In this document: positions 13,784 through 29,264 of the stretch, one piece after another
How positions within the stretch are numbered: the first letter of the stretch is position 1
Layout: the number at the start of each line of letters is the position of its first letter
Virus record (IMG/VR): IMGVR_UViG_3300022923_000027
Location: 1 to 45,786 of that record
Direction: 5' to 3' (one strand)
DNA: 45,786 nt
Source: a virus
Lineage: Duplodnaviria; Caudoviricetes
Notes under the pieces: generated by a model
Told to the model about the DNA's origin: nothing
What the model saw: only the letters and a program-made list of their open reading frames with translations
The model's database searches: none
Position numbers and translations under genes: made by a program

Positions 13784-13808
13784 CAAGTCATTGATTTATA
13801 AGGTTTTA
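13784..13808. promoter_or_regulatory. isolated IHF-consensus-like site related to the dyad-element palindrome
   Basis: CAAGTCATTG-ATTTA-TAAGGTTTTA; minus strand reads AATCAATGACTTG, matching WATCAANNNNTTR; 20 bp upstream of TTGACA at 13829. Confidence 0.45.
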
Positions 13809-16518: not shown

Positions 16519-16604
16519 CAAATAATATAGTATAATATATACATAAATTTGAGAACAAAACTCAATCAAATAAAATAATTGATCTTTTACATTTTTTAGA
16601 ATTT

Positions 16605-16810
16605 GGAGATTCTCGACGGAGATCTCCTGTGGGTGACTGAACAAACTCGTCGTGAGCGAGTTAAGGTACGCGATTCTCTGTGGTGGAGTGCTGATGGGCA
16701 AATGTCTGAGGCAGGACAATACCAAGTCTAATCGTAGTAGGAAGTAGGTAATCATAGAACTGCTGTTCACGCCGAAAACTTGAGGGTATACAGGAATCCC
16801 TTCCCACATC
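16605..16810 (+). ncRNA. structured RNA resembling the manA RNA motif of marine phages
   Basis: Non-coding GC-richer island after TTGACA(16508)-N17-TATAAT; closing helix TGTGGG/CCCACA, hairpins AACTCG/CGAGTT and GAGGG/CCCTT; GGGTGACTGAAYAAAC...GTTAAGGT...GGTAYACAGGAAYCC blocks recalled from phage manA RNAs. Confidence 0.6.
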
Positions 16811-16828
16811 TATTTCTTAATCATACTT

Positions 16829-16889
16829 GATCCCGTTCGATGCTAGTTTCCCTCCACCATCCCATGCTAGTGTCGGGCGGGATTTTTTT
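16829..16889 (+). terminator. intrinsic terminator with long stem and C-rich loop
   Basis: ATCCCGTTCGATGCTAG / CTAGTGTCGGGCGGGAT stem followed by a T-run. Confidence 0.7.
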
Positions 16890-16928
16890 GGACTTGACAA
16901 ATCCATGATATCTGGCATACTTGTATAC

Positions 16929-17183
16929 ATGAACACATTGAAACAAATTCTTGCCAACTACGGATACATCAACAAAGAGCAACTCGCCGAGATTGCCGAA
17001 CATTTTCCACACATGAAAGTGGTTATCAAATGGGGCGGACTTCCTCGCGAACGAGTTCATGCTTATCAAGCAATCGAAACCATCGAGCGAGTCGAACGAG
17101 AAAATTTAGATTATTGCCGAGAAGTATTTCTTTGCGGTAAAGATTGCGATAATCTTCGCACAGCACTTCACATTGCACAATAA
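16929..17183 (+). CDS. hypothetical phage protein
   Basis: ATG 7 nt after TTGACA(16894)-N16-CATACT; the track start at 16827 runs through the terminator. Confidence 0.65.
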   Translation: MNTLKQILANYGYINKEQLAEIAEHFPHMKVVIKWGGLPRERVHAYQAIETIERVERENLDYCREVFLCGKDCDNLRTALHIAQ

Positions 17184-17201
17184 CCATAAACAAAAATTAT
17201 T

Positions 17202-17777
17202 ATGATTAATCCAGCCAAAGTAACAAACTATAACAGAACACAATACGAATTAGAAGAATTTATTTTATTTTGTATTAATGTAGCAGGTAAAAAATCTGCA
17301 ATAGAAGCACCTAAATTAGAAGTATTCATTGAAAGAGCAAAAGATATAACAAAAGAAACAAGTCCATTTAATTGTATTAGAAAATTGATTAAACTCGGGC
17401 GACTCAACGAGATCATGCATTGGGCAAAACTATCTCCATATGCTCAGCGTTACAACTCCTATGTTGCTGTGTCTAAAATCAAAGACCTTCAGACTGTTAC
17501 TCTCAATCGTTTACTACAGGTTCCTGGCATAGGTCTCAAGACAGCACGATTCTTTCTTTCACATAGTCGCGAGGATTTCGATGAACCAATGCTCGACACA
17601 CACATCCTGCGTTTTCTTCGCGATCAAGGTTATGTCGACGCTCCAAAGAGCACGCCGAGCAACGAGAACACCTATCACTATTTCGCGAACATCTTTAAAA
17701 ACATTGCTCGCCAACTCGGCAAAACTGTCACTGATCTTGATCTTGAAATTTGGAAACAATACTCGAAGACCGTTTAA
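17202..17777 (+). CDS. HhH-GPD DNA glycosylase-like protein (Ogg-like)
   Basis: LLQVPGIGLKTARFFL HhH with Lys; MLDTHILRFL catalytic Asp; C-terminal DL.IW. Confidence 0.75.
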   Translation: MINPAKVTNYNRTQYELEEFILFCINVAGKKSAIEAPKLEVFIERAKDITKETSPFNCIRKLIKLGRLNEIMHWAKLSPYAQRYNSYVAVSKIKDLQTVTLNRLLQVPGIGLKTARFFLSHSREDFDEPMLDTHILRFLRDQGYVDAPKSTPSNENTYHYFANIFKNIARQLGKTVTDLDLEIWKQYSKTV

Positions 17778-17780
17778 CCT

Positions 17781-17858
17781 TTGGACATCACAACAATAAT
17801 AATAATCAGCAGCGTCGTAGGTTTCATCAGAATGATCAATGACATTCGTGAATGGTAG
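17781..17858 (+). CDS. 25-aa hydrophobic microprotein (MDITTIIIISSVVGFIRMINDIREW)
   Basis: TTG start; clear paralogue at 24628..24714 on the minus strand. Confidence 0.55.
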   Translation: MDITTIIIISSVVGFIRMINDIREW

Positions 17859-17863
17859 AAACC

Positions 17864-17960
17864 CAAATACGAAATAACCAAATAACAAATAATACAATGC
17901 CAAATACATAGGTACAAATAACAACAACCAAAAAAACAATAAACACAAAAACACAATAAA
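17864..17960 (+). repeat. degenerate (CAAATA)n A/C-rich tract
   Basis: ccaaatacgaaataaccaaataacaaataatacaatgccaaatac...; nearly G-free. Confidence 0.6.
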
Positions 17961-17994
17961 ATTTGTAAAATTAGAATAAAAATTAAAAATGATA

Positions 17995-18071
17995 TAAGTT
18001 GTTGAATATCAACGAGTTGCGCGAAAATCGCCTAGGCAGTTTCGCCTAAGTCATTGAACCGCAACAAGATA
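17995..18071. repeat. 77-bp dyad element E1
   Basis: TAAGTTGTTG-N5-CAACGAGTTG + 27 bp (CCTAGG) + TAAGTCATTG-N5-CAACAAGATA. Confidence 0.9.
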
Positions 18072-18091
18072 CAACTATTTTTAAAAAAGTG

Positions 18092-18119
18092 TTGACAGCA
18101 CGCAAAAATCTGTCATACT
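18092..18119 (+). promoter_or_regulatory. TTGAC...CTGTCATACT class early promoter (leaderless)
   Basis: TTGACA-N16-CATACT ends 6 nt before ATG 18126; same class at 6129, 15033, 16894, 20032, 21412, 22572, 22719. Confidence 0.75.
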
Positions 18120-18125
18120 AAAGTC

Positions 18126-18515
18126 ATGATTAAGGATGAACCTCGATACAAGATAGACTATAATCGCCCTGTTTTTGTATACCGCAACTTGCACAAAAAG
18201 TGTTGGAGTGTCAAGCAGGATGGTTTGGTCAAAGCTCACAGTCAACTTCTTGCCATGCACAGTTGCACTTTTAAAGTTAGTCAAGCAGGACGCAAGCGAG
18301 TAATCAAGGAGCAACGCAAAAATGTTCATGCAGGCGTTCATGGTTATCTTGAGAATTGGCAGATGGGCGAATGGATCGACTCGCATCCAACAGCAAGACC
18401 TGTAACTTATAACCCTTACAAGTATGAGAATTTTGTTGACAAAGACACCGAGCAAATGGTAGACTATGCTATTGCCGTAAGATTAGAACCCAAACAAGTA
18501 TTAGCAGTATTATGA
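18126..18515 (+). CDS. conserved phage hypothetical protein
   Basis: VYRNLHKKCWSV...F.VS.AGR.RV..E.RKNVHA...YNPYK, recalled as a widespread phage family. Confidence 0.8.
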   Translation: MIKDEPRYKIDYNRPVFVYRNLHKKCWSVKQDGLVKAHSQLLAMHSCTFKVSQAGRKRVIKEQRKNVHAGVHGYLENWQMGEWIDSHPTARPVTYNPYKYENFVDKDTEQMVDYAIAVRLEPKQVLAVL

Positions 18516-18663
18516 ACACAGACCAATTAACAAAAACACAACTAAAAAAAGAAATCCTCAATGAGTTCGATTATTTATCTCCAAGCGACTTGATAAGAAT
18601 TTTTGAGATGATTTTTGGACATGGTGAGGTTGAATTTAACGAAGTAGATTGGAGCAAGTAATT

Positions 18664-18888
18664 ATGACTCAAGCAAAAATTAGACAAGAAATCGCAGACA
18701 TTGTTCACGGAAATCTCCGCTATGCAGATCCGTTCGACAGAATGAATCTTGAGAAGGGTGAGCGAGTTGGAGTTAAGGGTTTCACAGTTCAGTCAGCAGA
18801 AGAGGTCTTGGATGACATCATTTGTGACTTGACAAGTTTGCAAGATGAGATTAGAATAGAATCATCTTTTCAATCAGCACAACTATAA
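18664..18888 (+). CDS. hypothetical phage protein
   Basis: First ATG in track ORF 18649..18888. Confidence 0.6.
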   Translation: MTQAKIRQEIADIVHGNLRYADPFDRMNLEKGERVGVKGFTVQSAEEVLDDIICDLTSLQDEIRIESSFQSAQL

Positions 18889-18901
18889 CACAAGAAAAAT
18901 T

Positions 18902-19321
18902 ATGGGATTAGATCAATACGCATACTCACGACCACCACGCAAACGCAACTCGGATGACGATGTGCAACTGATGGAGTGGCGAAAGCACAATCGCTTGCAA
19001 GGTTGGATGCAACAACTTTGGTACGACAAAGGTTGCCCAAATGCAAAAACAGAAGATGATGAGATGGGGGATTTTAATTGCGTTGAGTTGCAATTAACCA
19101 AGCAAGACATTGACAACTTGGAATATGCAATCGAGAATTTTGAATTGCCCGAAGCCAATGGATTCTTTTGGGGAAGCGATTCATACTTTTGGCATAACGA
19201 GAATGATGAACCATTTCCCGAGAATGACTATTGGTACAAGCAGAACGACCTTCAATTTGTTGAGGATGCAAAAAAAGCACTTGACAATGGACACAGAATC
19301 TACTATTCTTGTTGGTATTGA
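18902..19321 (+). CDS. conserved phage hypothetical protein (MGLD...WRKHN...GFF.G family)
   Basis: MGLDQY, WRKHNRLQGWM, FNC, GFFWG and YSCW motifs. Confidence 0.8.
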   Translation: MGLDQYAYSRPPRKRNSDDDVQLMEWRKHNRLQGWMQQLWYDKGCPNAKTEDDEMGDFNCVELQLTKQDIDNLEYAIENFELPEANGFFWGSDSYFWHNENDEPFPENDYWYKQNDLQFVEDAKKALDNGHRIYYSCWY

Positions 19322-19323
19322 TT

Positions 19324-19503
19324 ATGGAAGAACTACAAAACATCATTAACGATCTACAAGCACGACTAGCAATAGTTGGTGGTGGTAGAATCATCATTAC
19401 TAGCGACAATTGCTCAGTCAGTTTGGGCAAAGAACACGAAGATTTCGAGGTTCAAGAAAACCAAGCTGATGTTGAGATGTACAACCAAATGTGGGGACAA
19501 TAA
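19324..19503 (+). CDS. hypothetical phage protein
   Basis: ATG 2 nt after upstream stop. Confidence 0.55.
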   Translation: MEELQNIINDLQARLAIVGGGRIIITSDNCSVSLGKEHEDFEVQENQADVEMYNQMWGQ

Positions 19504-19506
19504 GTT

Positions 19507-19722
19507 ATGGAACGAAAAGAATACATTGATGCAGTTTGCCAAGGTGAGCCACTAGAAACACCATCTTACAATCACGCTTCAGATACTTGGAGTTTGTGGT
19601 TCGAGGAGTCTCCAACTCCTTATCACCCCTACTTTCAAAGGGATTTGATTGAAGTGAGCTTCGAATCCAAAACGGATGCCGAAAGGGCATATCACCATTA
19701 TTCACAGCCAATACAAGGTTAA
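19507..19722 (+). CDS. hypothetical phage protein
   Basis: ORF track. Confidence 0.6.
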   Translation: MERKEYIDAVCQGEPLETPSYNHASDTWSLWFEESPTPYHPYFQRDLIEVSFESKTDAERAYHHYSQPIQG

Positions 19723-19890
19723 TCATGTCAAACAAAAACATTGAAAACCTGCGCAAACAGGTTAGACAAATGGGCTACAACCTCGCAGAAATAGAGAAGC
19801 GCGGGCTTAAGGGCCCGGATCATGTTGCTCGCAGGCTTGCTCACAATCTATTGCTTGGTCAATTATACGAGCTAGAAAAGAGGGTTTAAC

Positions 19891-19929
19891 AGGTTGACGG
19901 GCCCGCTTGTGGGGGCGGGCCCGTTAACC
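19891..19929. terminator. strong GC-rich hairpin abutting element E2
   Basis: GGTTGACGGGCCCGC / GCGGGCCCGTTAACC inverted repeat at the end of an operon; no clear U-tract. Confidence 0.6.
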
Positions 19930-20000
19930 CCTTATCTTCAACGACTTACGAAAAACCGCCCAGGCCCGCATTTCATAACTCATTGAATACCAATCACTTA
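19925..20000. repeat. dyad element E2 (76 bp; first palindrome degenerate)
   Basis: ...CAACGACTTA + 27 bp (CCCAGG) + TAACTCATTG-N5-CAATCACTTA. Confidence 0.85.
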
Positions 20001-20080
20001 CAACAATCTTTAGTTTTATGCAAAAAAAGTGTTGACATAACATCATTTTCTGTCATACTTGTATACATAAAGACGATAAC

Positions 20081-20140
20081 CGCAAACAAAAAAAATTAGT
20101 CGAAACAAAAAAAACTTAATCGAAGAAAAAAAAGCTTGAC
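20081..20140 (+). repeat. three tandem 20-bp A-tract repeats ending in a -35 box
   Basis: cgcaaacaaaaaaaattagt / cgaaacaaaaaaaacttaat / cgaagaaaaaaaagcttgac. Confidence 0.7.
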
Positions 20141-20200
20141 AGATCAGCCAAAATTTAGTAAAATTAATCCATCAAGACAATAACTCACAAAGAAAAAATT

Positions 20201-20956
20201 ATGACCAAAAAAATCAACCTCTCCGTATGTGCAACCAAAGAATCTTCCTTCAAGGAAATTCAAGCAGTCAAGACTCCCGAAGCAACTGACTCTTGGCAAC
20301 CCATTAGTCATGCGTTTCTTGTGGATCGTGTGCAGAACCAAATGCAAGACAATGGTTGGGAAATTGTTGACACTTATCATTCCCTTCATCGCTTTGGTCA
20401 ACGCTACTTTGGCTTGTTTCATGTCAAGAATACAGGCGTTGACAATGACGAGCGTGGAACCATTGTTGGTCTTCGTAACTCGCACGACAAATGCTTTCCT
20501 GCAGGACTCTGCATGGGCAATGCTCCATTTGTCTGCTCAAATCTCATCTTCACCAATGAGGTTGTACTTGCAAGACGGCACACTAAAAACATCTTGAACG
20601 ACTTGTCTCAAGTTATCGCTCGCACTCTTGGCAAAATGACCGAGACATGGACGAGCGACGAGCAACGCATCCAAGCGTACAAAGAACATGAACTTGACAA
20701 CTCTCAAGCCCATGACCTTGTGATTCGTGCTTACCAAAATGGTGCGATCAGCAAAGCAAAAATCGCTGATGTTGTCGAGCAATGGCACAAGCCCGAACAC
20801 GATGACTTCTCACCTCGCACCATGCACTCGCTTTACAATGGATTCACGCATATCCTTAAAGGTGGAATCACGGCATTGCCAAATCGTTCTCTCGCTTTGC
20901 ATGGCGTTCTCGACTCTGAAGTGGGCTTGATTTCTCAACCTGCAAACGCATCTTAA
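20201..20956 (+). CDS. DUF932-family protein
   Basis: PISH, GLRNSHDK, G...FVCSN, RRHT and SLYN.FT motifs. Confidence 0.75.
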   Translation: MTKKINLSVCATKESSFKEIQAVKTPEATDSWQPISHAFLVDRVQNQMQDNGWEIVDTYHSLHRFGQRYFGLFHVKNTGVDNDERGTIVGLRNSHDKCFPAGLCMGNAPFVCSNLIFTNEVVLARRHTKNILNDLSQVIARTLGKMTETWTSDEQRIQAYKEHELDNSQAHDLVIRAYQNGAISKAKIADVVEQWHKPEHDDFSPRTMHSLYNGFTHILKGGITALPNRSLALHGVLDSEVGLISQPANAS

Positions 20957-20998
20957 TCATAACAAACCATAAACCTAAACCTAAAAAAAATTAAAATT

Positions 20999-21229
20999 AT
21001 GAAAAAGCAACCAAAACTCCAAAATGTAGTTGATAGTCTCAAGGGTCGTTTCGTTTCCCTTCTTGTAAAGCAAGGCGAGCAACGCAAAGCGTTCTCTGCA
21101 AAGGTAAACGGCGTCACCTCTCGCCATGTAATGTTCTCGGACATGAATGGAAGAAATCGTCGAGTTAATCGTCGCCATGTGCTTCGGGCAACTTGTGCCG
21201 ACAAGACTTTTAAAAGGTCGGTGAGTTAA
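20999..21229 (+). CDS. small basic hypothetical protein
   Basis: ORF track; followed by terminator. Confidence 0.65.
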   Translation: MKKQPKLQNVVDSLKGRFVSLLVKQGEQRKAFSAKVNGVTSRHVMFSDMNGRNRRVNRRHVLRATCADKTFKRSVS

Positions 21230-21253
21230 TCGAGGCAAGCCCTCGTATGTTAT

Positions 21254-21278
21254 AGCCTCCCTTCGGGGAGGCTTTTTT
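21254..21278 (+). terminator. intrinsic terminator
   Basis: AGCCTCCC-TTCG-GGGAGGCT then T-run. Confidence 0.9.
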
Positions 21279-21297
21279 GTTTTTAAATTTATTGCTG

Positions 21298-21374
21298 TAA
21301 GTTGTTGAATTTCAAGCAGTTATGCAAATCGGGCCTAGGCAATTTCGCGCAAGTCGTTGAGCCTCAGCAAGATG
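21298..21374. repeat. 77-bp dyad element E3
   Basis: TAAGTTGTTG-N5-CAAGCAGTTA + 27 bp (CCTAGG) + CAAGTCGTTG-N5-CAGCAAGATG. Confidence 0.9.
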
Positions 21375-21446
21375 CGTAACAAAACTTTTTTTATTTTTTT
21401 CAATTTAGGGGTTGACTTAGCGAGTTAATCTGTCATAATTATGTAC

Positions 21447-22175
21447 ATGATTAAGACAACTATTCTCACTCAAGGTAACGCAAAGATAGTCAAAGGCGAG
21501 GAGCTTGGCTATGTAACTAAAGGCATCCATTTTGCTCCTGCTAATCTTTCGGGCAATGAAGTTTGCCAATGGCGTAGCAAAGGTTGCACGGCAAGTTGCC
21601 TCAACACAGCGGGTCGTGGTCAAATGAATAGCATTCAACAATCACGCATTGCCAAGACAAAGTTATTCTTCGACAAGCAAATTGAATTCCTTCACAAGCT
21701 ATCGAAAGAAATTTCCAATTCAATCAAGTCATCGACAAAGAAGGGTATGAAGTCAGTCTTTCGTCTTAATCTCACAAGCGACATCGCTTGGGAGTCTGTA
21801 TTTTTCAATGAAGAAAAACCTCAAACAATCTTTGACAAGTTTCCGTCAATCCAATTCTACGATTATACAAAGTCATTCAAGAGAATGGCTCAGTATCTTG
21901 GCAAGCACAAAGAGTTTCCAAAAAACTATCACTTGACCTTTAGCCGTTCAGAAACAAACGACAAGCTTAGCCAAATGGTTCTTGAAATGGGTGGCAATGT
22001 AGCCGTTGTGTTTCGCAATCAACTTCCAAAAACATGGAAGGGTTACGAGGTTGTCAATGGTGATGACAATGACCTTCGCTTTCTTGACAAGCAAGGTGTG
22101 GTCGTCGGCTTAATCGAGAAGGGCATGGCAAAAAAGGATTCAACGGGATTTGTTCAAGAGGGAATTGACTCTTGA
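21447..22175 (+). CDS. GP88-like phage protein (Cys-rich, radical-SAM-like)
   Basis: C...S.GC...CL...GRG, FRLN.TSD..W, FYDYTK, YHLTFS, GD..DLRFLD, KG.AK.D..GFV; second Met fits the leaderless promoter. Confidence 0.75.
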   Translation: MIKTTILTQGNAKIVKGEELGYVTKGIHFAPANLSGNEVCQWRSKGCTASCLNTAGRGQMNSIQQSRIAKTKLFFDKQIEFLHKLSKEISNSIKSSTKKGMKSVFRLNLTSDIAWESVFFNEEKPQTIFDKFPSIQFYDYTKSFKRMAQYLGKHKEFPKNYHLTFSRSETNDKLSQMVLEMGGNVAVVFRNQLPKTWKGYEVVNGDDNDLRFLDKQGVVVGLIEKGMAKKDSTGFVQEGIDS

Positions 22176-22386
22176 CAATCCAACTCAACTCAACTATTAT
22201 TACATCATGACAGATACTTATTACGAATCGGCTGAAGACATTAAACTCTCACAACAAGAAGCATTCAATGTACTTGCTCAACATGGTTGCCAAGAGATTG
22301 ACGAATTCTTTCAAGACATGGGCGACAAGGAAGAGTATGATGCACAAAAAGTGTTGCAATGGTTAGGCTATTAACAAATCAAAGAT

Positions 22387-22491
22387 ATGAAAAAAATACT
22401 ATTATTCGGATCAATTTTATTCACCTTTAGTGCATACACTTTGCTTTGCATTTATGCGGATGTTGTAAACGCTTGGTTGCAAGCGAGTTAG
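22387..22491 (+). CDS. 34-aa single-TM microprotein (MKKILLFGSILFTFSAYTLLCIYADVVNAWLQAS)
   Basis: Translated by hand; 3' end runs through the first palindrome of E4. Confidence 0.45.
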   Translation: MKKILLFGSILFTFSAYTLLCIYADVVNAWLQAS

Positions 22492-22542
22492 GGCAAACCG
22501 CCCTGGCCAAAATCGCGCAAGTCGTTGATGAAGAAGCGCTTA
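22466..22542. repeat. 77-bp dyad element E4
   Basis: TAAACGCTTG-N5-AAGCGAGTTA + 27 bp (GGGCAAACCGCCCTGG...) + CAAGTCGTTG-N5-GAAGCGCTTA; spacer inverted relative to E6/E7/E9. Confidence 0.85.
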
Positions 22543-22605
22543 TGACTTTTTTTAATTTTATGTTTTTTATGTTGACTCTAGGCAAGGGTCTGTCATAATG
22601 ATACT

Positions 22606-22708
22606 TACCAACACGACCTGATCAAGCTGCAAATTGATGGAGGTGAAGAGAAGCATGATTGCAGTCAACGCTAAACTCTTGGGGGTTCGATTCCCTCCGT
22701 GTCTGGTA
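22606..22708 (+). ncRNA. unclassified 103-nt four-way-junction RNA with a tRNA T-arm
   Basis: Own promoter (TTGACT 22572, CATAAT 22594); terminal stem TACCA-ACACG / CGTGT-C-TGGTA; T-arm GGGGG-TTCGATT-CCCTC; two internal arms. Confidence 0.7.
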
Positions 22709-22752
22709 TGATTTTTACTTGACTTCTGCACTCACTCTGTCATAATTGAACC

Positions 22753-22866
22753 ATGATAAAGATTAGAAAAAAGATTCTCTTCACCAAGTCAAGACCACAC
22801 AAGGTCAAGGCGAAAGTGATCCATCGCAAACTCAAACACAAGGAGGCATTAACCCATGTATCTTAA
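22753..22866 (+). CDS. 37-aa very basic peptide (MIKIRKKILFTKSRPHKVKAKVIHRKLKHKEALTHVS)
   Basis: Translated by hand; TTGACT(22719)-N16-CATAAT ends 6 nt before ATG. Confidence 0.6.
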   Translation: MIKIRKKILFTKSRPHKVKAKVIHRKLKHKEALTHVS

Positions 22867-23101
22867 CGACCCACATCATATACAAGTCCAAGACTTGAAT
22901 GCAATCGAGGCAAACGAATTAGCAATGTCATTCATTCACGACGAACTCATCGAACCAATGGAAAGAAACAATTTGCTTGACAATGACGCACTTTCTCTAT
23001 TGAATGTAGTTGGTGGAGCATTAAAATCCATCGCTCAAAAAGCTCACTCATACGAAACCCTATACGAAAACAAGCACGATGCAAAGTATCTCCGTAACTA
23101 G
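22856..23101 (+). CDS. hypothetical phage protein
   Basis: ORF track; AAGGAGG upstream. Confidence 0.65.
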   Translation: MYLNDPHHIQVQDLNAIEANELAMSFIHDELIEPMERNNLLDNDALSLLNVVGGALKSIAQKAHSYETLYENKHDAKYLRN

Positions 23102-23280
23102 CAAAAAGTATCTCATCACCAAAAGCAATGATAATTGTGTGATCGCAGTTCTTTCTGAAGACAAGACATCGAAATCTGATTTCTTTATCAACGAAACAAC
23201 CATGAAAAAAAACATTGACAACAAGACATTTGTTCGCCATAATGTATTAAAGTATAACAACGAGCCAATCTACATCTACC

Positions 23281-23640
23281 ATGAAGACATTTAATGATTT
23301 AAATTTCCAACCTCATCCTCAAGCAGAAGACCTTGGTGTGCAAGCACGCATGACTTTTGACAATGGTTACGCTATCAGCGTGGTCGCGAACACGGAAGGA
23401 GGGACAAGTTTTTATGGAAATCATCCTGACACTTACGAGGTTGCTATTTTTAATCAGCGTGGAGATTTTGTTCCTTTGCAGAAATGTGATGATGTTATTG
23501 GTTGGCAAGACGCAATACAAGTATCCAAGTTGATGAAACAATTTCAAGAAGATGGCTTGCAACACGAAAAACTTTTGCATGCAATTAGGCAAGACTTCGA
23601 CAAGCAACTTAAACAAAAAAACCTAGCAAGATATGAATAG
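23281..23640 (+). CDS. conserved phage hypothetical protein
   Basis: F.NGY..SVV...YG...YEVA....DV.GW, recalled as a widespread phage family. Confidence 0.75.
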   Translation: MKTFNDLNFQPHPQAEDLGVQARMTFDNGYAISVVANTEGGTSFYGNHPDTYEVAIFNQRGDFVPLQKCDDVIGWQDAIQVSKLMKQFQEDGLQHEKLLHAIRQDFDKQLKQKNLARYE

Positions 23641-23797
23641 TTACCAAATATTAAACAACGGCGAGCCCGCGGGCATTGTGGGCACTCTCGACTATATAGT
23701 GATCGCACTTCGCAATCTTGAATCGAATATTGATCGGGCGACAACTCATTCACCTTATACAATTGCATTGGTAGAGCGGGCAATAAGAATGTCAACG

Positions 23798-23857
23798 CAA
23801 TAAATACCAAATAGAAATAGAACAAATACAAATAGAAATACAAATACAATAAATACA
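23798..23857 (+). repeat. degenerate (SAAATA)n tract
   Basis: caataaataccaaatagaaatagaacaaatacaaatagaaatacaaatacaataaataca. Confidence 0.7.
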
Positions 23858-23900
23858 TTTAAACTAAAAGCACAAATGCACTAAAGCGACAGAAATTCTG

Positions 23901-23977
23901 TAAGTTGCTATATATCAACGAGTTACGAAAAACTCGCCTAGGCGATTTCGCCTAAGTTGTTGAATACCAATGACTTA
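23901..23977. repeat. 77-bp dyad element E5, at the convergence of the two arms
   Basis: TAAGTTGCTA-N5-CAACGAGTTA + 27 bp (TCGCCTAGGCGA) + TAAGTTGTTG-N5-CAATGACTTA. Confidence 0.9.
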
Positions 23978-23982
23978 CTGAA

Positions 23983-24204
23983 CTATTCGTCCATCAACCA
24001 CTCGTCGAGTGCGTAGGTGTCTAGATCTGGATCCTTGAAGCTTGCTCCATCTGGAGTGCAGGGAGTACCCATCTCCTGAAGTCTATCCGCAAGGTCTTTG
24101 TAATTGACAAAGCGGCGAGAGAGCTTGTAAAGGCTTTCGTCGTTATCTAACCAAAGGGCAACATTCCAAGTCGCCCAATTTTTCCAACCGTTGTAATTTT
24201 CCAT
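23983..24204 (-). CDS. conserved phage hypothetical protein (YNGW.N..TW.V.LW family)
   Basis: YNGWKNWATWNVALWLDND...TPDG motif. Confidence 0.8.
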   Translation of the reverse strand: MENYNGWKNWATWNVALWLDNDESLYKLSRRFVNYKDLADRLQEMGTPCTPDGASFKDPDLDTYALDEWLMDE

Positions 24205-24244
24205 GATATTAATCTAGTTTAATTTTTTGTGAAAGTCAAGCGAA

Positions 24245-24430
24245 TCACTCCCATTCGGAGTGAAAGCCCCAATCAATGTCGGGCTGATCCTCGAACTCGA
24301 GCAGAGCAATCTGGTCTTCCAGCTCGCCGATTTCGTTGCGTATCGCAACTCTTTGCGAGTCAGTCAAAATGCACTCTTTGAGTGCTTTGTGAAGGTCGAT
24401 GATTTCTTTTTGCATTTCTGTTTTAGTCAT
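24245..24430 (-). CDS. hypothetical phage protein
   Basis: ATG 5 nt after minus-strand TTGACA-N17-TACCTT. Confidence 0.65.
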   Translation of the reverse strand: MTKTEMQKEIIDLHKALKECILTDSQRVAIRNEIGELEDQIALLEFEDQPDIDWGFHSEWE

Positions 24431-24494
24431 ACCTAAAGGTAGCATCATTAAGTAGCTTTGTCAAATTTTTTTTTAAATTATTTTTATTTTGTTG

Positions 24495-24571
24495 TAAAGC
24501 TTTGGGCGTCAACGAGTTACGAAAAACAGACCTGGGCGGTTTGCCCTAAGTCGTTGATGTTCAAGAGTTTG
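24495..24571. repeat. 77-bp dyad element E6
   Basis: TAAAGCTTTG-N5-CAACGAGTTA + 27 bp (CCTGGG) + TAAGTCGTTG-N5-CAAGAGTTTG. Confidence 0.9.
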
Positions 24572-24627
24572 GGAGAAAGGTCAAGCCCCGATACTCAGTG
24601 AATGACCTATACTCCCAAAAGTTTGTA

Positions 24628-24714
24628 TTAAAAGTCTGCCCCGAAAAAGAATTGGTTAATCATGCGAATGATTCCGACTATACTGCTGATGATGATGATT
24701 GTAGCTATATCCAT
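24628..24714 (-). CDS. 28-aa hydrophobic microprotein (MDIATIIIISSIVGIIRMINQFFFGADF)
   Basis: TTTACT-N17-TATAAT ends 6 nt before ATG; paralogue of 17781..17858. Confidence 0.65.
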   Translation of the reverse strand: MDIATIIIISSIVGIIRMINQFFFGADF

Positions 24715-24751
24715 GCGTATATTATACCAAAAATCAAGGTTCAAGTAAAGA

Positions 24752-25048
24752 TTAATCTTCAAAAACTTCACGCATCAATGGGCTGACTGCCGTCATGTCT
24801 GCAAGGTTTTCGTCGTTGTCGTAGTCTTCGTCCTCTGATGCTTTATCTTCACTTGACGCAAGCTCGGAAACCTCATCTTCTACATCTCGCTGATTTGCTT
24901 CAAGCAAGCCATGTTCGACGATTAATTCTTCTGCTAGTATATCAGCACGAAGGTCATCAACAAATGATTTAAGACCTGCAGGAAGCTCGGTTGCGTTATT
25001 GTTGCTCGCCATTTGGCGAATGATTTCTAATCTTTGTGATTCTGTCAT
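24752..25048 (-). CDS. acidic hypothetical protein
   Basis: ORF track. Confidence 0.65.
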   Translation of the reverse strand: MTESQRLEIIRQMASNNNATELPAGLKSFVDDLRADILAEELIVEHGLLEANQRDVEDEVSELASSEDKASEDEDYDNDENLADMTAVSPLMREVFED

Positions 25049-25264
25049 GATGTTAATTATGTTTAATTTTAAGAGTTTTGCAAGGAAAAAGTTTGCTGAT
25101 TTTTATTATTTTCGAGTATTTCGTCGAGTTCAATTTGTGCATTAATCACAAGTTGTTGAGCCCCAACATGACCAAGCTCGGCAAGTGAGGTGTGAATTCG
25201 TATGATTTCTTTGAGTTCGTTTATTTTGTTCATGATAGTAGAGTAAGGGAATTGATTTGATTTG

Positions 25265-25834
25265 TCAACCTAAAAGGTAATGATTTAAAGCACTCTCAAG
25301 CTTGCCTTTGTTAAGGTTTTCTTTTCGGTCGCGAGGAACAAAGTTTGACCAATGGTTAGAGCCTCCACTTTGTTTTTCTGTTATATGGTCAACATTCCAA
25401 GCGTTTTTAATGTTTCTGTTTGTCCAATTAGACCAATTTTTGCCGTCTTCAAGCTGAACATCAAGAAAGATTTTGAACTGATCAAAAGAACATCCCAAAG
25501 TTTTTTTGTTGGCTCCGAGAGCATGAATCCTTATCATAAATTTTGATCTTTCGGATCCATCTGTAATCATTGATACTTTTGGATCGTGGGCTACTTTATT
25601 TCTGATTCTTTTATACTTGGCTTTGACTTCAGATTTTTGTTGCCTTGTTTTTTTGATTAACTTTTGAAGTCTTGCAATCTTAATGTCCAACTCTTCAATT
25701 TGATTTCTTTCGGAGATTTTCAGCATATCGGCAAGATCAAGATCTGTTTTGCTATTATTTTCAATTTTTCTTGTTCCGTGGTGTTTGTTCCAAGCTTCAG
25801 ATATTTTAACTTTCATAATTTTATTTTTTAGCAA
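25265..25834 (-). CDS. HNH endonuclease domain protein
   Basis: C-terminal WNVDHITEKQSGGSNHWSNFVPRDRKENLNK; start uncertain. Confidence 0.75.
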   Translation of the reverse strand: MLKNKIMKVKISEAWNKHHGTRKIENNSKTDLDLADMLKISERNQIEELDIKIARLQKLIKKTRQQKSEVKAKYKRIRNKVAHDPKVSMITDGSERSKFMIRIHALGANKKTLGCSFDQFKIFLDVQLEDGKNWSNWTNRNIKNAWNVDHITEKQSGGSNHWSNFVPRDRKENLNKGKLESALNHYLLG

Positions 25835-25864
25835 TTAATGTATAAGTTTTATATTATATATAAT

Positions 25865-25990
25865 TTATTTTGTGTCAAACTTTTTTTTGCTTACATCCTT
25901 AAAAAGATCAATTTTCTTTTCGGTCATGGATTTGTGCATAAAGAAGAAAGCGGGAGCAAAAGTCAAGAGGATCAAGATATCGTAATTCAT
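25865..25990 (-). CDS. 41-aa membrane microprotein (MNYDILILLTFAPAFFFMHK...)
   Basis: Internal ATG of the track ORF; paralogue at 26170..26250. Confidence 0.6.
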   Translation of the reverse strand: MNYDILILLTFAPAFFFMHKSMTEKKIDLFKDVSKKKFDTK

Positions 25991-26095
25991 ATTTTTTTTC
26001 GTTAGGTTAATTAATGTTATGTATACAATGTATACGCAAAATCCGATAAAGTCAAGCAAAACGCAAAAAAAAGTTAAATTATTTTTATTTTGTTG

Positions 26096-26172
26096 TAAGT
26101 TGTTGTTGTTCAATGAGTTACGCAAAACGAGCCTGGGCGGTTTGCCCTAAGTCGTTGACTCTCAGCGACTTA
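26096..26172. repeat. 77-bp dyad element E7
   Basis: TAAGTTGTTG-N5-CAATGAGTTA + 27 bp (CCTGGG) + TAAGTCGTTG-N5-CAGCGACTTA. Confidence 0.9.
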
Positions 26173-26250
26173 CGAGTCGCTAAAGATGTCTTTGTGCATG
26201 ATGTAGAATACTGCAACCCAAGGCAAGAATAGTAGAATATCGTAACTCAT
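26170..26250 (-). CDS. 26-aa membrane microprotein (MSYDILLFLPWVAVFYIMHKDIFSDS)
   Basis: Translated by hand; paralogue of 25865..25990; its TAA is the end of E7. Confidence 0.55.
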   Translation of the reverse strand: MSYDILLFLPWVAVFYIMHKDIFSDS

Positions 26251-26467
26251 AGTTGTTTTGGTTATTTACTTGAGAGAATAGGGGCTTTGAACTTTACGCT
26301 TAATTTTCTAGCGATATGCATCGCTTGTGCGTGAGATTTAGCCGAGTCAACAAGTTTGCCATTATAGACAACGCTAAACCAATTCGAGAAATTCGGGCTT
26401 CTATGTACATTTATCATTTTATTATTTAATCAAAAATTAGAGATTTACGCAAGCAAAAAGTGTGATT

Positions 26468-26656
26468 TTATTGAAAAACCACATTAAAACGAAACTGATT
26501 GAGACCTTCGTCTCGCATGATTTGATTTAGGTAAGCTTCACTTGAAGCAGTGCGAACCCGTGGGCGATCATTGCCCTCTGAATCGATTCCTTGATCGAAG
26601 ATCTTGACAGACCAATGCGTTGACCATTTTTTAATGCGTACTTGTATTTTATTCAT
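26468..26656 (-). CDS. hypothetical protein, copy 1 (MNKIQVRIKKWSTHWSVKIFD...)
   Basis: ORF track; paralogue at 27557..27733. Confidence 0.75.
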   Translation of the reverse strand: MNKIQVRIKKWSTHWSVKIFDQGIDSEGNDRPRVRTASSEAYLNQIMRDEGLNQFRFNVVFQ

Positions 26657-26771
26657 AATTATTTTCGTTTAAGGATTTTAGTTAAAATGAGGATTTTTTC
26701 TCTTTCGGTTAAGTTTGTCATTATGTTATTACTATAAAAAATTTTTCGTATAATTGCAAGAAAAAAGTGAA

Positions 26772-27239
26772 TTATTTTTCTTCCCAAAGTTCGGGATGAC
26801 TTGGAAAGTGAAAAACAAAGCGACCTTGATTTTGTTGGGCAAAGTCAATTTCGAATTGGGAAGGCTCGACTCCATAACGAAGGCGAAAGTTTGCCTCGGA
26901 TGTCGAGATGCCAAGTTCCTTCTTGAGCTTTACGACTTGGTTCATGCTTGGACGAGCAAGCTTGTTTTTGAAAACCTTTTCTTTTGCTTTTGCTTTTGCT
27001 TTTGGGGCAAAAGTTTCATTGCCAACTTGGAAACGCTCGGGAGCGTATTGATTCCAAAGGGTTGCAACTTCGGAAGGTGTCTCGCCATTGGCGACAAGAG
27101 AATGAGCCATTGCCTCGAGATTCTTTTTTGCGTTGAATCCACGAGTCCAAACGGAATGGTCATCCGAGAAGTCAAAGAACCAATCATGTCCTTGAAGGGC
27201 GTTTACGAAGTCGTTAATCATTTTATTTGTCTTAATCAT
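26772..27239 (-). CDS. hypothetical phage protein
   Basis: L..HDW.F.FSDDH.VW..G motif; ATG follows a TTGACT promoter. Confidence 0.7.
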   Translation of the reverse strand: MIKTNKMINDFVNALQGHDWFFDFSDDHSVWTRGFNAKKNLEAMAHSLVANGETPSEVATLWNQYAPERFQVGNETFAPKAKAKAKEKVFKNKLARPSMNQVVKLKKELGISTSEANFRLRYGVEPSQFEIDFAQQNQGRFVFHFPSHPELWEEK

Positions 27240-27302
27240 ATACCTACAAGGTAGCACATAAACTAGCAAAAGTCAAATTTATTTGCAATTATTTTCATCA
27301 CA

Positions 27303-27327
27303 TAAAACACTATCAATCAAGCACTTA
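27303..27327. repeat. accessory third palindrome of E8
   Basis: TAAAACACTA-N5-CAAGCACTTA, starting 79 bp before E8. Confidence 0.65.
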
Positions 27328-27381
27328 CATAAAACCGCGAAAAAAACTTTAATTTATTTGCGATTATTTTTTATTTTGTTG

Positions 27382-27458
27382 TAAAGCGTTGACTGTCAAC
27401 GACTTACGCAAACCGGCCCTAGGATTTTTTACGCAAGTTGCTGATACGCAACAACTTA
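27382..27458. repeat. 77-bp dyad element E8
   Basis: TAAAGCGTTG-N5-CAACGACTTA + 27 bp (CCTAGG) + CAAGTTGCTG-N5-CAACAACTTA. Confidence 0.9.
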
Positions 27459-27474
27459 TGCAATCTTTTTAAAG

Positions 27475-27549
27475 TGGTGGGCTAAGGTGGATTTGAACCA
27501 CCGACCGCCGCGTTATCAACACGGAGCTCTACCGCTGAGCTATTAGCCC
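27475..27549 (-). tRNA. tRNA-Ile(GAT)
   Basis: GGGCTAA-TAGCTCAGCGGTAGAGC-T-CCGTG-TTGATAA-CGCGG-CGGTC-GGTGG-TTCAAAT-CCACC-TTAGCCC-A-CCA; full cloverleaf with encoded CCA. Confidence 0.95.
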
Positions 27550-27556
27550 GCTAGGA

Positions 27557-27733
27557 TCAATGCTGAGTGACAACATTAAAGCGAGGGGAATTTAACCCTT
27601 CATCTTTTTTTATTTCCCTAAGATACGCAAGGCTAGATGCACTTCTAACTCTAGGATATTCAGTTCCTGTATCAAAGATCTTGACAGACCAATGCGTTGA
27701 CCATTTTTTTATTCTAACTTCAATTTTATTCAT
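27557..27733 (-). CDS. hypothetical protein, copy 2 (MNKIEVRIKKWSTHWSVKIFDTGTEYPRVRSASS...), 58 aa, not in ORF track
   Basis: Translated by hand; 20 of the first 21 aa identical to 26468..26656. Confidence 0.75.
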   Translation of the reverse strand: MNKIEVRIKKWSTHWSVKIFDTGTEYPRVRSASSLAYLREIKKDEGLNSPRFNVVTQH

Positions 27734-27770
27734 AACTTTATTATAGGGTTAAAGGTTAAAAGCGCAAGCT

Positions 27771-28019
27771 TTATTTTACAAGTTCAAGTATTTCTTCGCA
27801 AGCTTCGACACAACCTGATTCCCACCACAACTCGGGATCTTGTATTTCAGAAACAACTTTTTCGGATGACAACTCGGAAGGCAAGGAAACAACTTCGCCA
27901 AGCCCAAGTTTACCACCAAAGGCTTCTGCCAAGTTGTCGCAAGCACGATCGTTGCAACCTTCGTCAGCGTCGGCAAGTATTGAAAAGAGGGCTTGTATTT
28001 TTTGTTGTGATAATTTCAT
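27771..28019 (-). CDS. hypothetical phage protein
   Basis: ORF track. Confidence 0.65.
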   Translation of the reverse strand: MKLSQQKIQALFSILADADEGCNDRACDNLAEAFGGKLGLGEVVSLPSELSSEKVVSEIQDPELWWESGCVEACEEILELVK

Positions 28020-28113
28020 TTTATTTATTCTTTAATTGTTTAACTTACTATATATACAAACTATATTAAAAATTCAAAAAAGTCAAGCACATAGCAAAAA
28101 AAACTTTGTATCA

Positions 28114-28138
28114 TAAACTATTGATTATCAAGTACTTA
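28114..28138. repeat. accessory third palindrome of E9
   Basis: TAAACTATTG-N5-CAAGTACTTA, starting 79 bp before E9. Confidence 0.7.
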
Positions 28139-28192
28139 TGTAAACACGCAAAAAAAAGTTGTTTTATTTTAAGAAAAGTTTTAGGTTTGTTG

Positions 28193-28269
28193 TAAGTTGT
28201 TGTATACCAACGAGTTACGCAAAAAACGCGTAGGCGGTTTGCCCTAAGTCGTTGACCCTGTGCTACTTA
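28193..28269. repeat. 77-bp dyad element E9
   Basis: TAAGTTGTTG-N5-CAACGAGTTA + 27 bp (CGTAGG) + TAAGTCGTTG-N5-GTGCTACTTA. Confidence 0.9.
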
Positions 28270-28575
28270 GAACACAAGTGGATCAGGAATTGCGGTATTG
28301 GATGCAAACCAATCGAATGGGTCAATTTCTTGACCGTTTAGCACAGGCTCAAACTTGACTTGGTGAACGCCTGCATTGGCTATGCCGTTGACGCGTTCGC
28401 GTGTGGTGGGCGTATTGTATCCCGCAAGCGACCATCTAACGAGCCCGTCAGGATCGCGTTTGACAATCGCGTTGCCATGTAGCCAAACGGTCTCGCCGTC
28501 GGTCATGGTATTGCCAACGCTTAAAGGTTGGCGGCGTTCAAATGCTTGTTTGATTTGTTGTGTTACTTTTCTCAT
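28267..28575 (-). CDS. conserved phage hypothetical protein
   Basis: MRK.....AF...NT...LHGN.I...G..T.TT.ER.N family pattern; its TAA is the end of E9. Confidence 0.75.
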   Translation of the reverse strand: MRKVTQQIKQAFERRQPLSVGNTMTDGETVWLHGNAIVKRDPDGLVRWSLAGYNTPTTRERVNGIANAGVHQVKFEPVLNGQEIDPFDWFASNTAIPDPLVF

Positions 28576-28781
28576 GTTATTTTAGTTTCTGCAAATTCTT
28601 AAGGCTTCAGCGTCCCAAATGTCGATGATGGCTGAGAGTATCCAAGCTTGTCTCTTTTCAAGTCGAGCCTTACGCATTACGGCTGTGATTTGTTGGAGTC
28701 TTGGTTGTGGTTTGTTAATTTCTTTCATACTATTACTATCGTTTATTTTTGATGCAATTGCAAGAAAAAAGTTTATTTTTT

Positions 28782-28955
28782 TTAAGAAAAGAAAGGGTGC
28801 TTCTTAACTTGCCAAGGCATGAAAGCGACACGCTTTTGCGAGCGATACAAACGGCAAAGAATTTGTTTGCCCAATCGATCGGTCTTGTAGGACGCATCGA
28901 CGACTTGAAAAATTTGACCTTTGCGGTCAACTACTACATCATTATTCTTAATCAT
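28782..28955 (-). CDS. hypothetical small protein
   Basis: Internal ATG of the track ORF, after a minus-strand TTGACT promoter. Confidence 0.6.
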   Translation of the reverse strand: MIKNNDVVVDRKGQIFQVVDASYKTDRLGKQILCRLYRSQKRVAFMPWQVKKHPFFS

Positions 28956-29264
28956 ATAAACAACATAGCACACAAACCTTGAAAAGTCAAGAAAAACTTT
29001 AAATTATTTTATTGCACGATACCCCCTCCCCCTGTGTGACCCTACCCATTAAATGAATTCATTTTGCAATCGAATTGTGCAGTAGTGGCGGGGGGTGCCT
29101 TTTTTCAATATGAAATTGAACATCATACATTACAACATATTGCTTGGCTCAAAAAAAATCGGCGGCCCTTTCTAAAACAATCAATTTTGCACATATATAA
29201 ATAACAATGTCCGCCTTTAAAAAACATAAAAAAACGTGTAACTTATGTTAATATAATATATATC

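What the first reader, a model, noticed from the sequence alone, without database searches (positions are those of the whole stretch)
17995..28269. Nine fixed-geometry 77-bp dyad elements divide the accessory region into gene cassettes
Seen: elements start at 17995, 19925, 21298, 22466, 23901, 24495, 26096, 27382 and 28193. Each has a 25-bp palindrome (consensus TAAGTYGTTG-N5-CAAYGASTTA; 24 bp in E2), a spacer of exactly 27 bp in all nine with a CCTAGG-like centre flanked by A and T tracts, and a second palindrome. The sequence drifts but the geometry does not: the palindrome centres are 52 bp apart, about 5 helical turns. The elements delimit blocks of 0.5-1.9 kb (1853, 1297, 1091, 1358, 517, 1524, 1209, 734 bp) and are absent from the structural region. 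Each except E5 lies just upstream of a TTGAC promoter. Transcription converges on E5, and the E4 spacer (GGGCAAACCGCCC) is the reverse complement of the E6/E7 spacer. Established: terminator+promoter cassettes (PeSLs) shuffle early genes in some T4-type phages, and integrons array cassettes between attC sites. This motif resembles neither. Inference: it may be an undescribed cassette-shuffling/recombination or nucleoprotein-organising system. No recombinase is visible in this window.
Basis: partly seen in the sequence, partly recalled or inferred. Interest (0 to 1): 0.9.

Follow-up and report, generated by a model that had tools for sequence, protein, structure and literature searches.

The report
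Twin IHF-type sites before phage promoters
Nine real, rigidly spaced pairs of mirror-symmetric DNA sites lie between the early genes of an uncultured salt-marsh phage, eight of them upstream of a promoter; they are likely docking sites for a host DNA-bending protein (IHF family) that would fold and tune these promoters, and gene gains and losses in related phages fall on them no more often than on other intergenic DNA, so they are probably not a new recombination system.

Summary
The nine 77-bp elements are real (leave-one-out 59-91 bits against a background of -32 or less). Each 25-bp palindrome is a mirrored IHF consensus (TAA-N4-TTG..CAA-N4-TTA) whose invariant steps lie 9 bp apart, the spacing of IHF kinks. 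Whole-element hairpin pairing shows no covariation. Gaps to the -35 box cluster near 20, 30, 40, 93 and 105 bp. The same palindrome is enriched in Verrucomicrobiota and Planctomycetota chromosomes but not in Pseudomonadota, and a complete relative carries PVC-type genes. The 52-bp spacing is lineage-specific (48-58 bp in other phages of the family), and close relatives use a different arm at the same positions. Cassettes are gained, lost and reordered, but only 20 of 74 breakpoints fall in elements (25% expected for intergenic DNA). Crossovers are not fixed at the centre, no inversions occur among 91 type-A pairs, and no recombinase or HU/IHF was found in five related records. Best reading: host IHF-family architectural sites at early promoters, shuffled by ordinary homologous recombination, a PeSL-like variant. 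This scan reported the same element before in other genomes; I found no paper on it.

The parts
17995..18071 (.). E1 twin-palindrome element; -35 box 20 bp downstream (18092, +)
19892..19929 (+). 17-pair GC-rich hairpin abutting and overlapping the start of E2 (terminator-like; a tRNA gene stands here in L001 and L023)
19924..20000 (.). E2; -35 box 31 bp downstream (20032, +)
21254..21273 (+). Intrinsic-terminator-like hairpin (TTCG loop, T run) 24 bp before E3
21298..21374 (.). E3; -35 box 37 bp downstream (21412, +), about 3 bp off phase, as in its orthologues (36-38)
22466..22542 (.). E4; -35 box 29 bp downstream (22572, +)
23901..23977 (.). E5 at the point where the two transcription arms converge; no promoter
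24495..24571 (.). E6; -35 box 30 bp away on the - strand (24464)
26096..26172 (.). E7; -35 box 40 bp away on the - strand (26055)
27382..27458 (.). E8; TTGACT box 105 bp away on the - strand (27276); lies 16 bp past the 3' end of tRNA-Ile
27475..27549 (-). tRNA-Ile(GAT) inside the E8-E9 cassette
28114..28138 (.). Solo palindrome 79 bp from E9, between E9 and its promoter; conserved in L001, L010, L012, L014 and L020
28193..28269 (.). E9; -35 box 106 bp away on the - strand (28086)
13784..13808 (.). Solo palindrome 20 bp before a TTGAC box, outside the cassette region; a matching solo site with gap 20 or 29 occurs in type-A relatives and with gap 20 in type-B relative L003
11783..11807 (.). Solo palindrome about 31 bp before the TTGAC box ahead of the DNA ligase gene; counterparts in L007, L009 and L020
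1339..1363 (.). Solo palindrome 10 bp before a TTGAC box (1374)
18126..23803 (+). Left arm of small early-type genes (L5 gp82-like, DUF932, gp88-like); order conserved in most relatives
23983..28575 (-). Right arm of small genes (DUF7249, Kyano gp96-like, ORFans); content and order highly variable among relatives

Best explanation
Each element is a pair of mirror-symmetric sites likely bound by a host IHF-family DNA-bending protein, which would fold the DNA upstream of the phage's strong sigma-70-type early promoters and so tune or insulate them, while ordinary homologous recombination probably accounts for the cassette gains and losses. Shown: the palindrome reads TAA-N4-TTG-N5-CAA-N4-TTA, that is two copies of WATCAANNNNTTR sharing the central W. 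Its invariant T|T and A|A steps are 9 bp apart. Element-to--35 gaps cluster at multiples of about 10.5 bp. The motif is chromosomal in PVC bacteria, and breakpoints are not concentrated in elements. Inferred: the binder is an IHF-beta-like homodimer of a Verrucomicrobiota or Planctomycetota host, which explains the symmetry. One dimer per palindrome makes a U-turn, and two U-turns 52 bp apart make a compact loop whose proximal bend sits near -80 to -90 of most promoters. The loop helps RNA polymerase engage these promoters and/or separates them from upstream transcription. The copies are kept alike and occasionally swapped by RecA-type recombination and gene conversion.
For: Motif: information peaks at TAA, TTG, CAA and TTA (1.0-1.5 bits) with weaker N4 (0.6-0.8 bits), from 137 palindromes not in the window. 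Positions 9, 17, 23, 24, 54, 55 and 61 are 99-100% conserved in 100 distinct elements. The IHF consensus, AA kinks 9 bp apart and the role of TTR are stated in passages of PMC1874591, PMC5829579 and 10.1101/382655. Other phages of the family match the full mirrored consensus (TTGATWATCAA core). No whole-element hairpin: within-element pairing is at or below shuffled partners for all 6 region pairs. Phasing: gaps 20, 29-31, 36-38, 40-42, 92-94 and 104-106; Rayleigh p about 0.003 at period 10.5 on 12 values I chose by hand, one per junction class, best of 15 periods tried. Solo copies of the palindrome sit 10, 20 and about 31 bp before promoters outside the cassette region. Chromosomal counts, motif versus reversed control: Verrucomicrobiota 19 of 121 genomes, 69 versus 2 sites (18 of 120 and 65 sites without the centre genome, which was chosen for its match); Planctomycetota 23 of 121, 35 versus 1; Bacteroidota 17 of 121, 23 versus 10; Pseudomonadota 3 of 121, 4 versus 7. 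Complete relative G001 encodes DUF1501, DUF1549 and DUF1553; its DUF1501 is 50-51% identical to the best Verrucomicrobiota and Planctomycetota hits. Each of 5 motif-bearing Verrucomicrobiota genomes has one IHF-like protein with Arg at the IHF-beta R46 position (4 of 5 also keep E44), and none of the 10 HU/IHF proteins found has the alpha-type KLSG stretch. That R46/E44 read TTR is recalled, not checked in a paper. G001 encodes RecA, an SSB, a Holliday-junction nuclease and an ERCC4 nuclease. Near-identical L023 and L024 have exchanged spacers between paralogous positions.
Against: No binding or transcription experiment exists; the host is inferred from a relative's genes only. The WA of WATCAA is barely conserved in this lineage (0 bits at palindrome positions 12-14). 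Spacing is 48-58 bp in other lineages, including 58 bp (5.5 turns, out of phase), so an in-phase loop is not universal. E3 orthologues are about 3 bp off phase, and the solo site at 28114 is 26-27 bp from its -35 box. Window-only phasing is weak (p about 0.04). Chromosomal sites in Verrucomicrobiota are solo (1 of 52 loci had a neighbour) and show no phasing to -35 boxes (11 gaps, p=0.99), so promoter activation is not their general host role. E5 has no promoter. Right-arm elements show some covariation in a 4-bp mini-hairpin (0.896 versus 0.816 shuffled, 0 of 500) and slightly in the inner arms (0.762 versus 0.738), though the sequences are related and not independent. Close relatives do without these arms altogether (type B).
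Confidence: 0.55

Rival explanations
1. IHF-family sites whose main job is not transcription initiation but structuring the first-entering DNA: compaction that helps genome uptake, protection of a terminal repeat, topological insulation or roadblocks between converging operons, or titration of the host's IHF.
For: The sites are confined to one block of small genes with strong promoters. E5 has no promoter. In near-identical contigs, depth inside the block was about twice that outside in 2 of 4 DNA runs (X2 about 10-12 versus 4-7; X5 about 21-26 versus 6-11), in line with the terminal-repeat lead of note e1-5836085. Spacing varies between lineages without keeping helical phase.
Against: The other 2 of 4 runs show no step (X13, X14), and the tool warns that contig depth is no copy number. 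Phasing to -35 boxes and solo sites at promoters outside the block point to polymerase contact.
Confidence: 0.22
2. PeSL-type terminator-promoter cassettes in which the GC-rich spacer is a degenerate stem-loop and the palindromes are incidental.
For: The 58-bp lineage has a clear hairpin core with TTCG/TACG loops in both orientations, and type-B relatives have G-run/C-run cores as in RB49 PeSLs (PMC4122927 passages). There is mini-hairpin covariation in right-arm elements, and true terminator-like hairpins precede E2 and E3. Four RNA runs hold contigs from the block.
Against: In this lineage the spacer folds weakly (median -6.6 kcal/mol; 25% reach -8), and only E5 was called terminator-like by the scan. 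The palindromes, not the core, carry the invariant bases. Fixed length and promoter phasing are not explained by an RNA hairpin.
Confidence: 0.13
3. Sites of a dedicated site-specific recombinase (integron- or shufflon-like) supplied by the phage or host.
For: 7 of 37 indel events have both ends in elements. L010 has one element where the window has E5 and E6, and L020 has the E9 cassette before the E8 cassette. A contig joint 27368 to 28179 skips the E8-E9 cassette in register in 2 of 4 DNA runs. IHF sites are classic accessories of recombinases.
Against: Boundaries in elements are 20 of 74 versus 25% expected for intergenic DNA. Identity decays gradually across the element, with no step at the centre. 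Neither the central 5-mer nor the N5 is constant. There are no inversions in 91 type-A pairs despite dyad symmetry. Cargo moves between phages with different arm types (gp88 of L020 groups with type-B L007/L028 at 100/99). PF00589 0 of 5 records, PF00239 0 of 2, PF07508 0 of 4 over cut-off (two weak sub-threshold hits). The read joints have short sides and may come from relatives.
Confidence: 0.07
4. Operators of a phage-encoded repressor that shuts off early genes.
For: Dyad symmetry, promoter-proximal position, and genome-wide uniform arm type.
Against: The sites do not overlap the promoters (20-106 bp upstream of -35). The same motif is chromosomal in three bacterial phyla and shared by distant phages. 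About ten short unannotated ORFs are shared by type-A G002 and G003 and missing from type-B G001; they were not characterised, so a phage binder is not excluded.
Confidence: 0.05

Closest known systems
PeSL (promoter-early stem-loop) cassettes of T4-type phages RB49/phi1, PST/T4, nt-1/KVP40 (PMC2839356: abstract, introduction, methods and passages read; PMC4122927: passages read)
   Same: Repeated intergenic units tied to strong sigma-70-type early promoters in the variable region; small ORFans gained, lost and swapped at or near them; no dedicated recombinase identified.
   Different: The conserved part here is a rigid pair of IHF-type palindromes in helical register with the promoter, not a terminator stem-loop ('IHF' occurs 0 times in PMC2839356). 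The phage is not T4-like in the genes seen. Minicircles were not shown here.
IHF cognate sites (lambda H', WATCAANNNNTTR; passages of PMC1874591, PMC5829579, 10.1101/382655) and IHF-assisted promoters (lambda PL, Mu Pe; recalled)
   Same: TCAA-N4-TTR, AA steps 9 bp apart, upstream of sigma-70-type promoters.
   Different: Two-fold symmetric (TTR on both flanks, no upstream A-tract at the E. coli position), always doubled at a fixed distance and repeated nine times; the binder is inferred to be a homodimer (Hbb-like, recalled).
Integron attC cassette arrays and tyrosine/serine recombinase sites (recalled)
   Same: Imperfect inverted repeats between small genes.
   Different: No covarying long hairpin, no fixed crossover base, no integrase, and genes carry their own promoters.
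CRISPR leaders folded by two IHF sites (10.1101/2023.05.26.542337, search listing and start of abstract only)
   Same: Two IHF sites fold a short DNA stretch.
   Different: No CRISPR array near any of 121 bacterial paired-site hits, and no cas genes were seen among the annotated ORFs.

Membership tests
PeSL cassette | Strong sigma-70-like early promoter in the unit | tested here: met
   TTGAC-type promoter matches for 8 of 9 elements, 20-106 bp away; sequence match only
PeSL cassette | Stem-loop just upstream that acts as a terminator | tested here: inconclusive
   No whole-element covariation; weak 4-bp mini-hairpin covariation in right-arm copies; separate strong hairpins only before E2 and E3; termination not testable
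PeSL cassette | Located in a hyperplastic ORFan region, with indels near the units | tested here: met
   13 of 37 events touch an element; enriched over all DNA (p=1e-6) but not over intergenic DNA (p=0.40)
PeSL cassette | Minicircles from recombination between neighbouring units | tested here: inconclusive
   Only assembled contigs were available; in-register joints 27368-28179 and 28223-27426 may come from relatives
IHF cognate site | WATCAANNNNTTR consensus | tested here: met
   Inner halves differ by 0-2 bases in 17 of 18 palindromes; TCAA and TTR conserved, WA poorly
IHF cognate site | Two AA steps 9 bp apart at the kink positions | tested here: met
   T8|T9 and A17|A18, with T9 and A17 invariant in 100 of 100 elements (PMC1874591)
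IHF cognate site | Bound and bent by an IHF-family protein | not testable with these tools
   Candidate host proteins exist; no binding data
Site-specific recombination site (tyrosine/serine/attC) | Fixed crossover position with matching overlap sequence | tested here: not met
   Gradual identity decay and variable centres
Site-specific recombination site (tyrosine/serine/attC) | Cognate recombinase in the element's genome | tested here: not met
   None over cut-off: PF00589 in G001, G002, G003, G489, G490; PF07508 in four of them; PF00239 in G001 and G002; a host enzyme is not excluded
Site-specific recombination site (tyrosine/serine/attC) | attC-like covarying single-strand hairpin | tested here: not met
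   Within-element pairing at or below shuffled
CRISPR leader | Adjacent repeat-spacer array | tested here: not met
   0 of 121 bacterial hits (41 held only about 300 bp of flank or less); none in the window

The most novel reading that the evidence does not exclude
A whole family of large PVC-infecting phages builds its own 'chromatin' on the first-expressed DNA. It recruits a host IHF-beta-type homodimer to tandem symmetric sites to fold a rigid microloop at every transcription-unit boundary. Lineages switch en bloc, by gene conversion, to a different spacing or to arms for a different host protein, so the choice of architectural protein would track or set host range.
Probability: 0.2. Interest if true: 0.75.

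Novelty: new variant of a known kind. Interest (0 to 1): 0.45.

Why it matters
If right, it shows a lytic-type phage family using arrays of doubled IHF-type sites, rather than terminator hairpins, as the repeated unit of its early region. It also gives a ready-made predicted binding site for the untested IHF-like proteins of Verrucomicrobiota and Planctomycetota, and the motif could serve as a host-prediction marker. It removes the case for a new recombinase system: the shuffling looks like the PeSL process already described. Paper searches returned nothing on this element in listings, but the library lacks most subscription papers, and this scan has already noted the element in several other genomes.

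Tried and rejected
Rfam: no family over the elements. Cultured relatives: none; only a 54-bp match to cyanophage S-SKS1, and terminase hits of 23-27%. Dcm/CCWGG or CTAG crossover core: rejected, the centre is variable. Long hairpin or cruciform: rejected. CRISPR-leader mimic: rejected, 0 of 121. Integrase-linked att sites for the bacterial paired hits: 50 flanking ORFs from 25 loci gave no phage integrase, mostly ordinary genes plus a few transposases. Phage-encoded HU/IHF: 0 of 5 records. Terminal repeat from depth: inconclusive, 2 of 4 runs. RNA runs: contigs only and low depth, so no starts, ends or strand; one RNA contig spans E3 and another joins 22568 to 22719. My first promoter regex missed the minus-strand promoters and was relaxed. 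Gene labels were noisy, so the statistic was redone with strand-aware ORFs; its 9 genome pairs share genomes, so some events are counted twice. The search for a paper on IHF R46/E44 failed. The type-B arm (TTGCACAAT..GGGGCCCC..ATTGTGCAA) was not matched to any protein. Records behind L003, L016, L020, L021, L065 and L081 were not held for whole-genome search. No supplements were read.

Full report
Setting. The window is the whole record G000, a 45.8-kb fragment of a large tailed phage: rIIA/rIIB, ATP-dependent ligase, PhoH and terminase, a manA RNA at 16605-16812 and tRNA-Ile. No cultured relative was found. The DUF932 gene fetched 35 viral loci, 28 of them at 78-94% identity, from contigs up to 184 kb. 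Runs holding this DNA are labelled salt-marsh metagenomes.

Observation. All nine elements are present with a 27-bp spacer. Leave-one-out scores are 59-91 bits against at most -32.5 elsewhere. The palindromes are imperfect (4-9 of 10 pairs), CCTAGG occurs in 4 of 9, and the dyad centre is one base. In L001-L035 a variable-spacer scan gave 89 of 111 pairs at 27 bp, 9 at 26 and 4 at 24. Whole records G002 and G003 have elements only in the matching ~10-kb block. Solo palindromes also occur at 1339, 11783, 13784 and 28114.

What the palindrome is. A symmetric profile from 137 non-window palindromes has its information in TAA, TTG, CAA and TTA, with weaker N4. This is WATCAANNNNTTR read outward on both strands from a shared W. 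PMC1874591 (passages) states that IHF kinks DNA at two steps, usually AA, nine base pairs apart, and that WATCAA starts near the centre of the site. Here T8|T9 and A17|A18 are 9 bp apart; T9 and A17 are invariant in 100 of 100 distinct elements, and the TT of TTA is too. Related phages show the full TTGATWATCAA core. Against: the WA positions carry no information in this lineage. Pairing within an element is at or below that of shuffled partners for all six region pairs, so a long hairpin is not selected. After orienting by transcription, right-arm copies show covariation in a 4-bp GGGC/GCCC mini-hairpin (0.896 versus 0.816) and slightly in the inner arms, in related sequences.

Host link. With one mismatch allowed, the palindrome was found in 19 of 121 Verrucomicrobiota genomes (69 sites versus 2 for the reversed control; four genomes have 11-13 each). 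It was found in 23 of 121 Planctomycetota (35 versus 1), 17 of 121 Bacteroidota (23 versus 10) and 3 of 121 Pseudomonadota (4 versus 7) (phyla taken from record titles of L281, L260, L293 and L298). Complete relative G001 carries DUF1501, DUF1549 and DUF1553 (PVC-typical, recalled), about 50% identical to both PVC phyla. Five motif-bearing Verrucomicrobiota genomes each have one IHF-like protein keeping the IHF-beta R46 position; none of the 10 family members found has the alpha-type stretch. A beta-type homodimer would read TTR on both flanks (inference; residue roles recalled). Host sites are solo, 4 of 49 distinct ones lie 8-9 bp past a tRNA 3' end, and they are not phased to promoters. No phage HU/IHF was found in 5 records.

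Position. Gaps from element to -35 box fall at 20, 29-31, 36-38, 40-42, 92-94 and 104-106 bp. On 12 hand-chosen class values the best of 15 periods is 10.5 (p about 0.003); in the window alone p is about 0.04. Solo palindromes sit 10, 20 and about 31 bp before promoters outside the block, and counterparts persist in relatives that lack twin elements. Several of these promoters have ATG 6-7 nt after the -10 box, so transcripts are probably leaderless.

Geometry across the family. Several share gp88-like, DUF932-like or PhoH genes. The 58-bp lineage has a true tetraloop hairpin core. Close relatives L003, L007, L009, L013 and L028 have at the same positions a different unit, TTGCACAAT..GGGGCCCC..ATTGTGCAA, and L026 has hybrids with one arm of each type. 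Arm types are intermixed on trees of four proteins.

Shuffling. The left arm keeps its order; the right arm gains, loses and reorders cassettes. Clean cases exist: L010 versus L012 (1.19 kb between two elements), L016 versus L017 (deletion leaving a triple palindrome, i.e. a crossover between a right and a left palindrome), and spacer swaps between L023 and L024. But across 9 genome pairs only 13 of 37 indels touch an element and 7 have both ends in one. Boundaries in elements are 20 of 74, versus 25% expected for intergenic DNA (p=0.40) and 8% for all DNA (p=1e-6); events are not independent. Identity between recombinant pairs decays gradually, with no step at the centre. Reverse-strand matches of 200 bp or more occur in 2 of 153 pairs, and in none of the 91 type-A pairs. 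No integrase or large serine recombinase was over cut-off in the records searched, including complete type-A genomes G489 and G490 (resolvase profile on two records), whereas G001 has RecA and Holliday-junction nucleases. Contig joints in register between E8 and E9 occur in 2 of 4 DNA runs but have short sides and may come from relatives.

Mechanism. Shown: motif, geometry, phasing trend, phylum bias, lack of a recombination hotspot. Inferred: a host IHF-family dimer binds each palindrome and makes a U-turn. The pair folds about 80-110 bp into a loop upstream of strong early promoters, aiding polymerase or insulating units, and homologous recombination homogenises and sometimes swaps the copies (0.55). 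Rivals: a structural role in first-entering DNA (0.22), a degenerate PeSL terminator (0.13), a site-specific recombinase (0.07), a phage repressor (0.05).

Comparison and novelty. It works like a PeSL cassette system (PMC2839356, PMC4122927; these identifiers came from earlier scan notes). It meets the promoter and variable-region criteria; the stem-loop criterion is inconclusive. It fails the tests for a site-specific recombination site. Eight earlier notes of this scan describe this element or its type-B counterpart in other genomes, with the same IHF and PeSL reading. I had noted the IHF resemblance before reading them. My breakpoint test tempers their claim that the elements mark where cassettes change. 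Verdict: real, apparently unpublished, a new variant of a known kind; interest 0.45.

Noticed in passing
L003, L007, L009, L013, L028 (e.g. L009 13136-13198); hybrids in L026 (6756, 10617, 14457): A second element type (TTGCACAAT..G-run/C-run..ATTGTGCAA) replaces the IHF-type arms at all equivalent positions in close relatives; its binder is unknown.
   Followed up: partly
L099-L104, L043, L114 (58-bp lineage): The spacer is a covarying hairpin with TTCG/TACG loops, and CGAA/CGTA in the reverse orientation, between the same palindromes.
   Followed up: partly
L348, L349, L366, L371 (Verrucomicrobiota); window 27382-27549; L001 and L023 upstream of E2: The palindrome sits 8-9 bp past tRNA 3' ends in several host genomes, and phage tRNAs lie just upstream of E8 and of E2 orthologues, an arrangement typical of island attachment sites (recalled).
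   Followed up: partly
G022, G087, G108, G113: Four small Verrucomicrobiota genomes carry 11-13 copies of the palindrome, in G022 and G113 inside longer repeated sequences (possible MITE-like repeats).
   Followed up: partly
window 16605-16812: manA RNA (Rfam RF01745, 82 bits) just left of the cassette block.
   Followed up: no
window 6129, 15033, 18092, 21412 (+), 24464, 25268 (-): The start codon lies 6-8 nt after the -10 box, so many early transcripts are probably leaderless.
   Followed up: no
window 17880-17990 and 23800-23895: Long A/C-rich, G-poor low-complexity tracts precede E1 and E5 and are homologous to each other; a possible origin or termination signal.
   Followed up: no
window about 16500-29900: Contig depth is about twofold higher inside than outside in 2 of 4 DNA runs, a weak hint of a long terminal repeat.
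   Followed up: partly
L221, L272, L249 and many other Acidobacteriota loci: A conserved pair of inverted IHF-like half sites 30 bp apart, with shared flanks, recurs next to unrelated genes in Acidobacteriaceae (38 of 121 bacterial hits have spacer 30).
   Followed up: partly
window 6164-6925 and 17202-17777: Two paralogous genes with weak 8-oxoguanine glycosylase (HhH) similarity.
   Followed up: no
G001 (L202 10391-13725): The complete relative carries the DUF1501 / DUF1549-DUF1553 gene pair, a SET-domain gene and many glycosyltransferases.
   Followed up: partly
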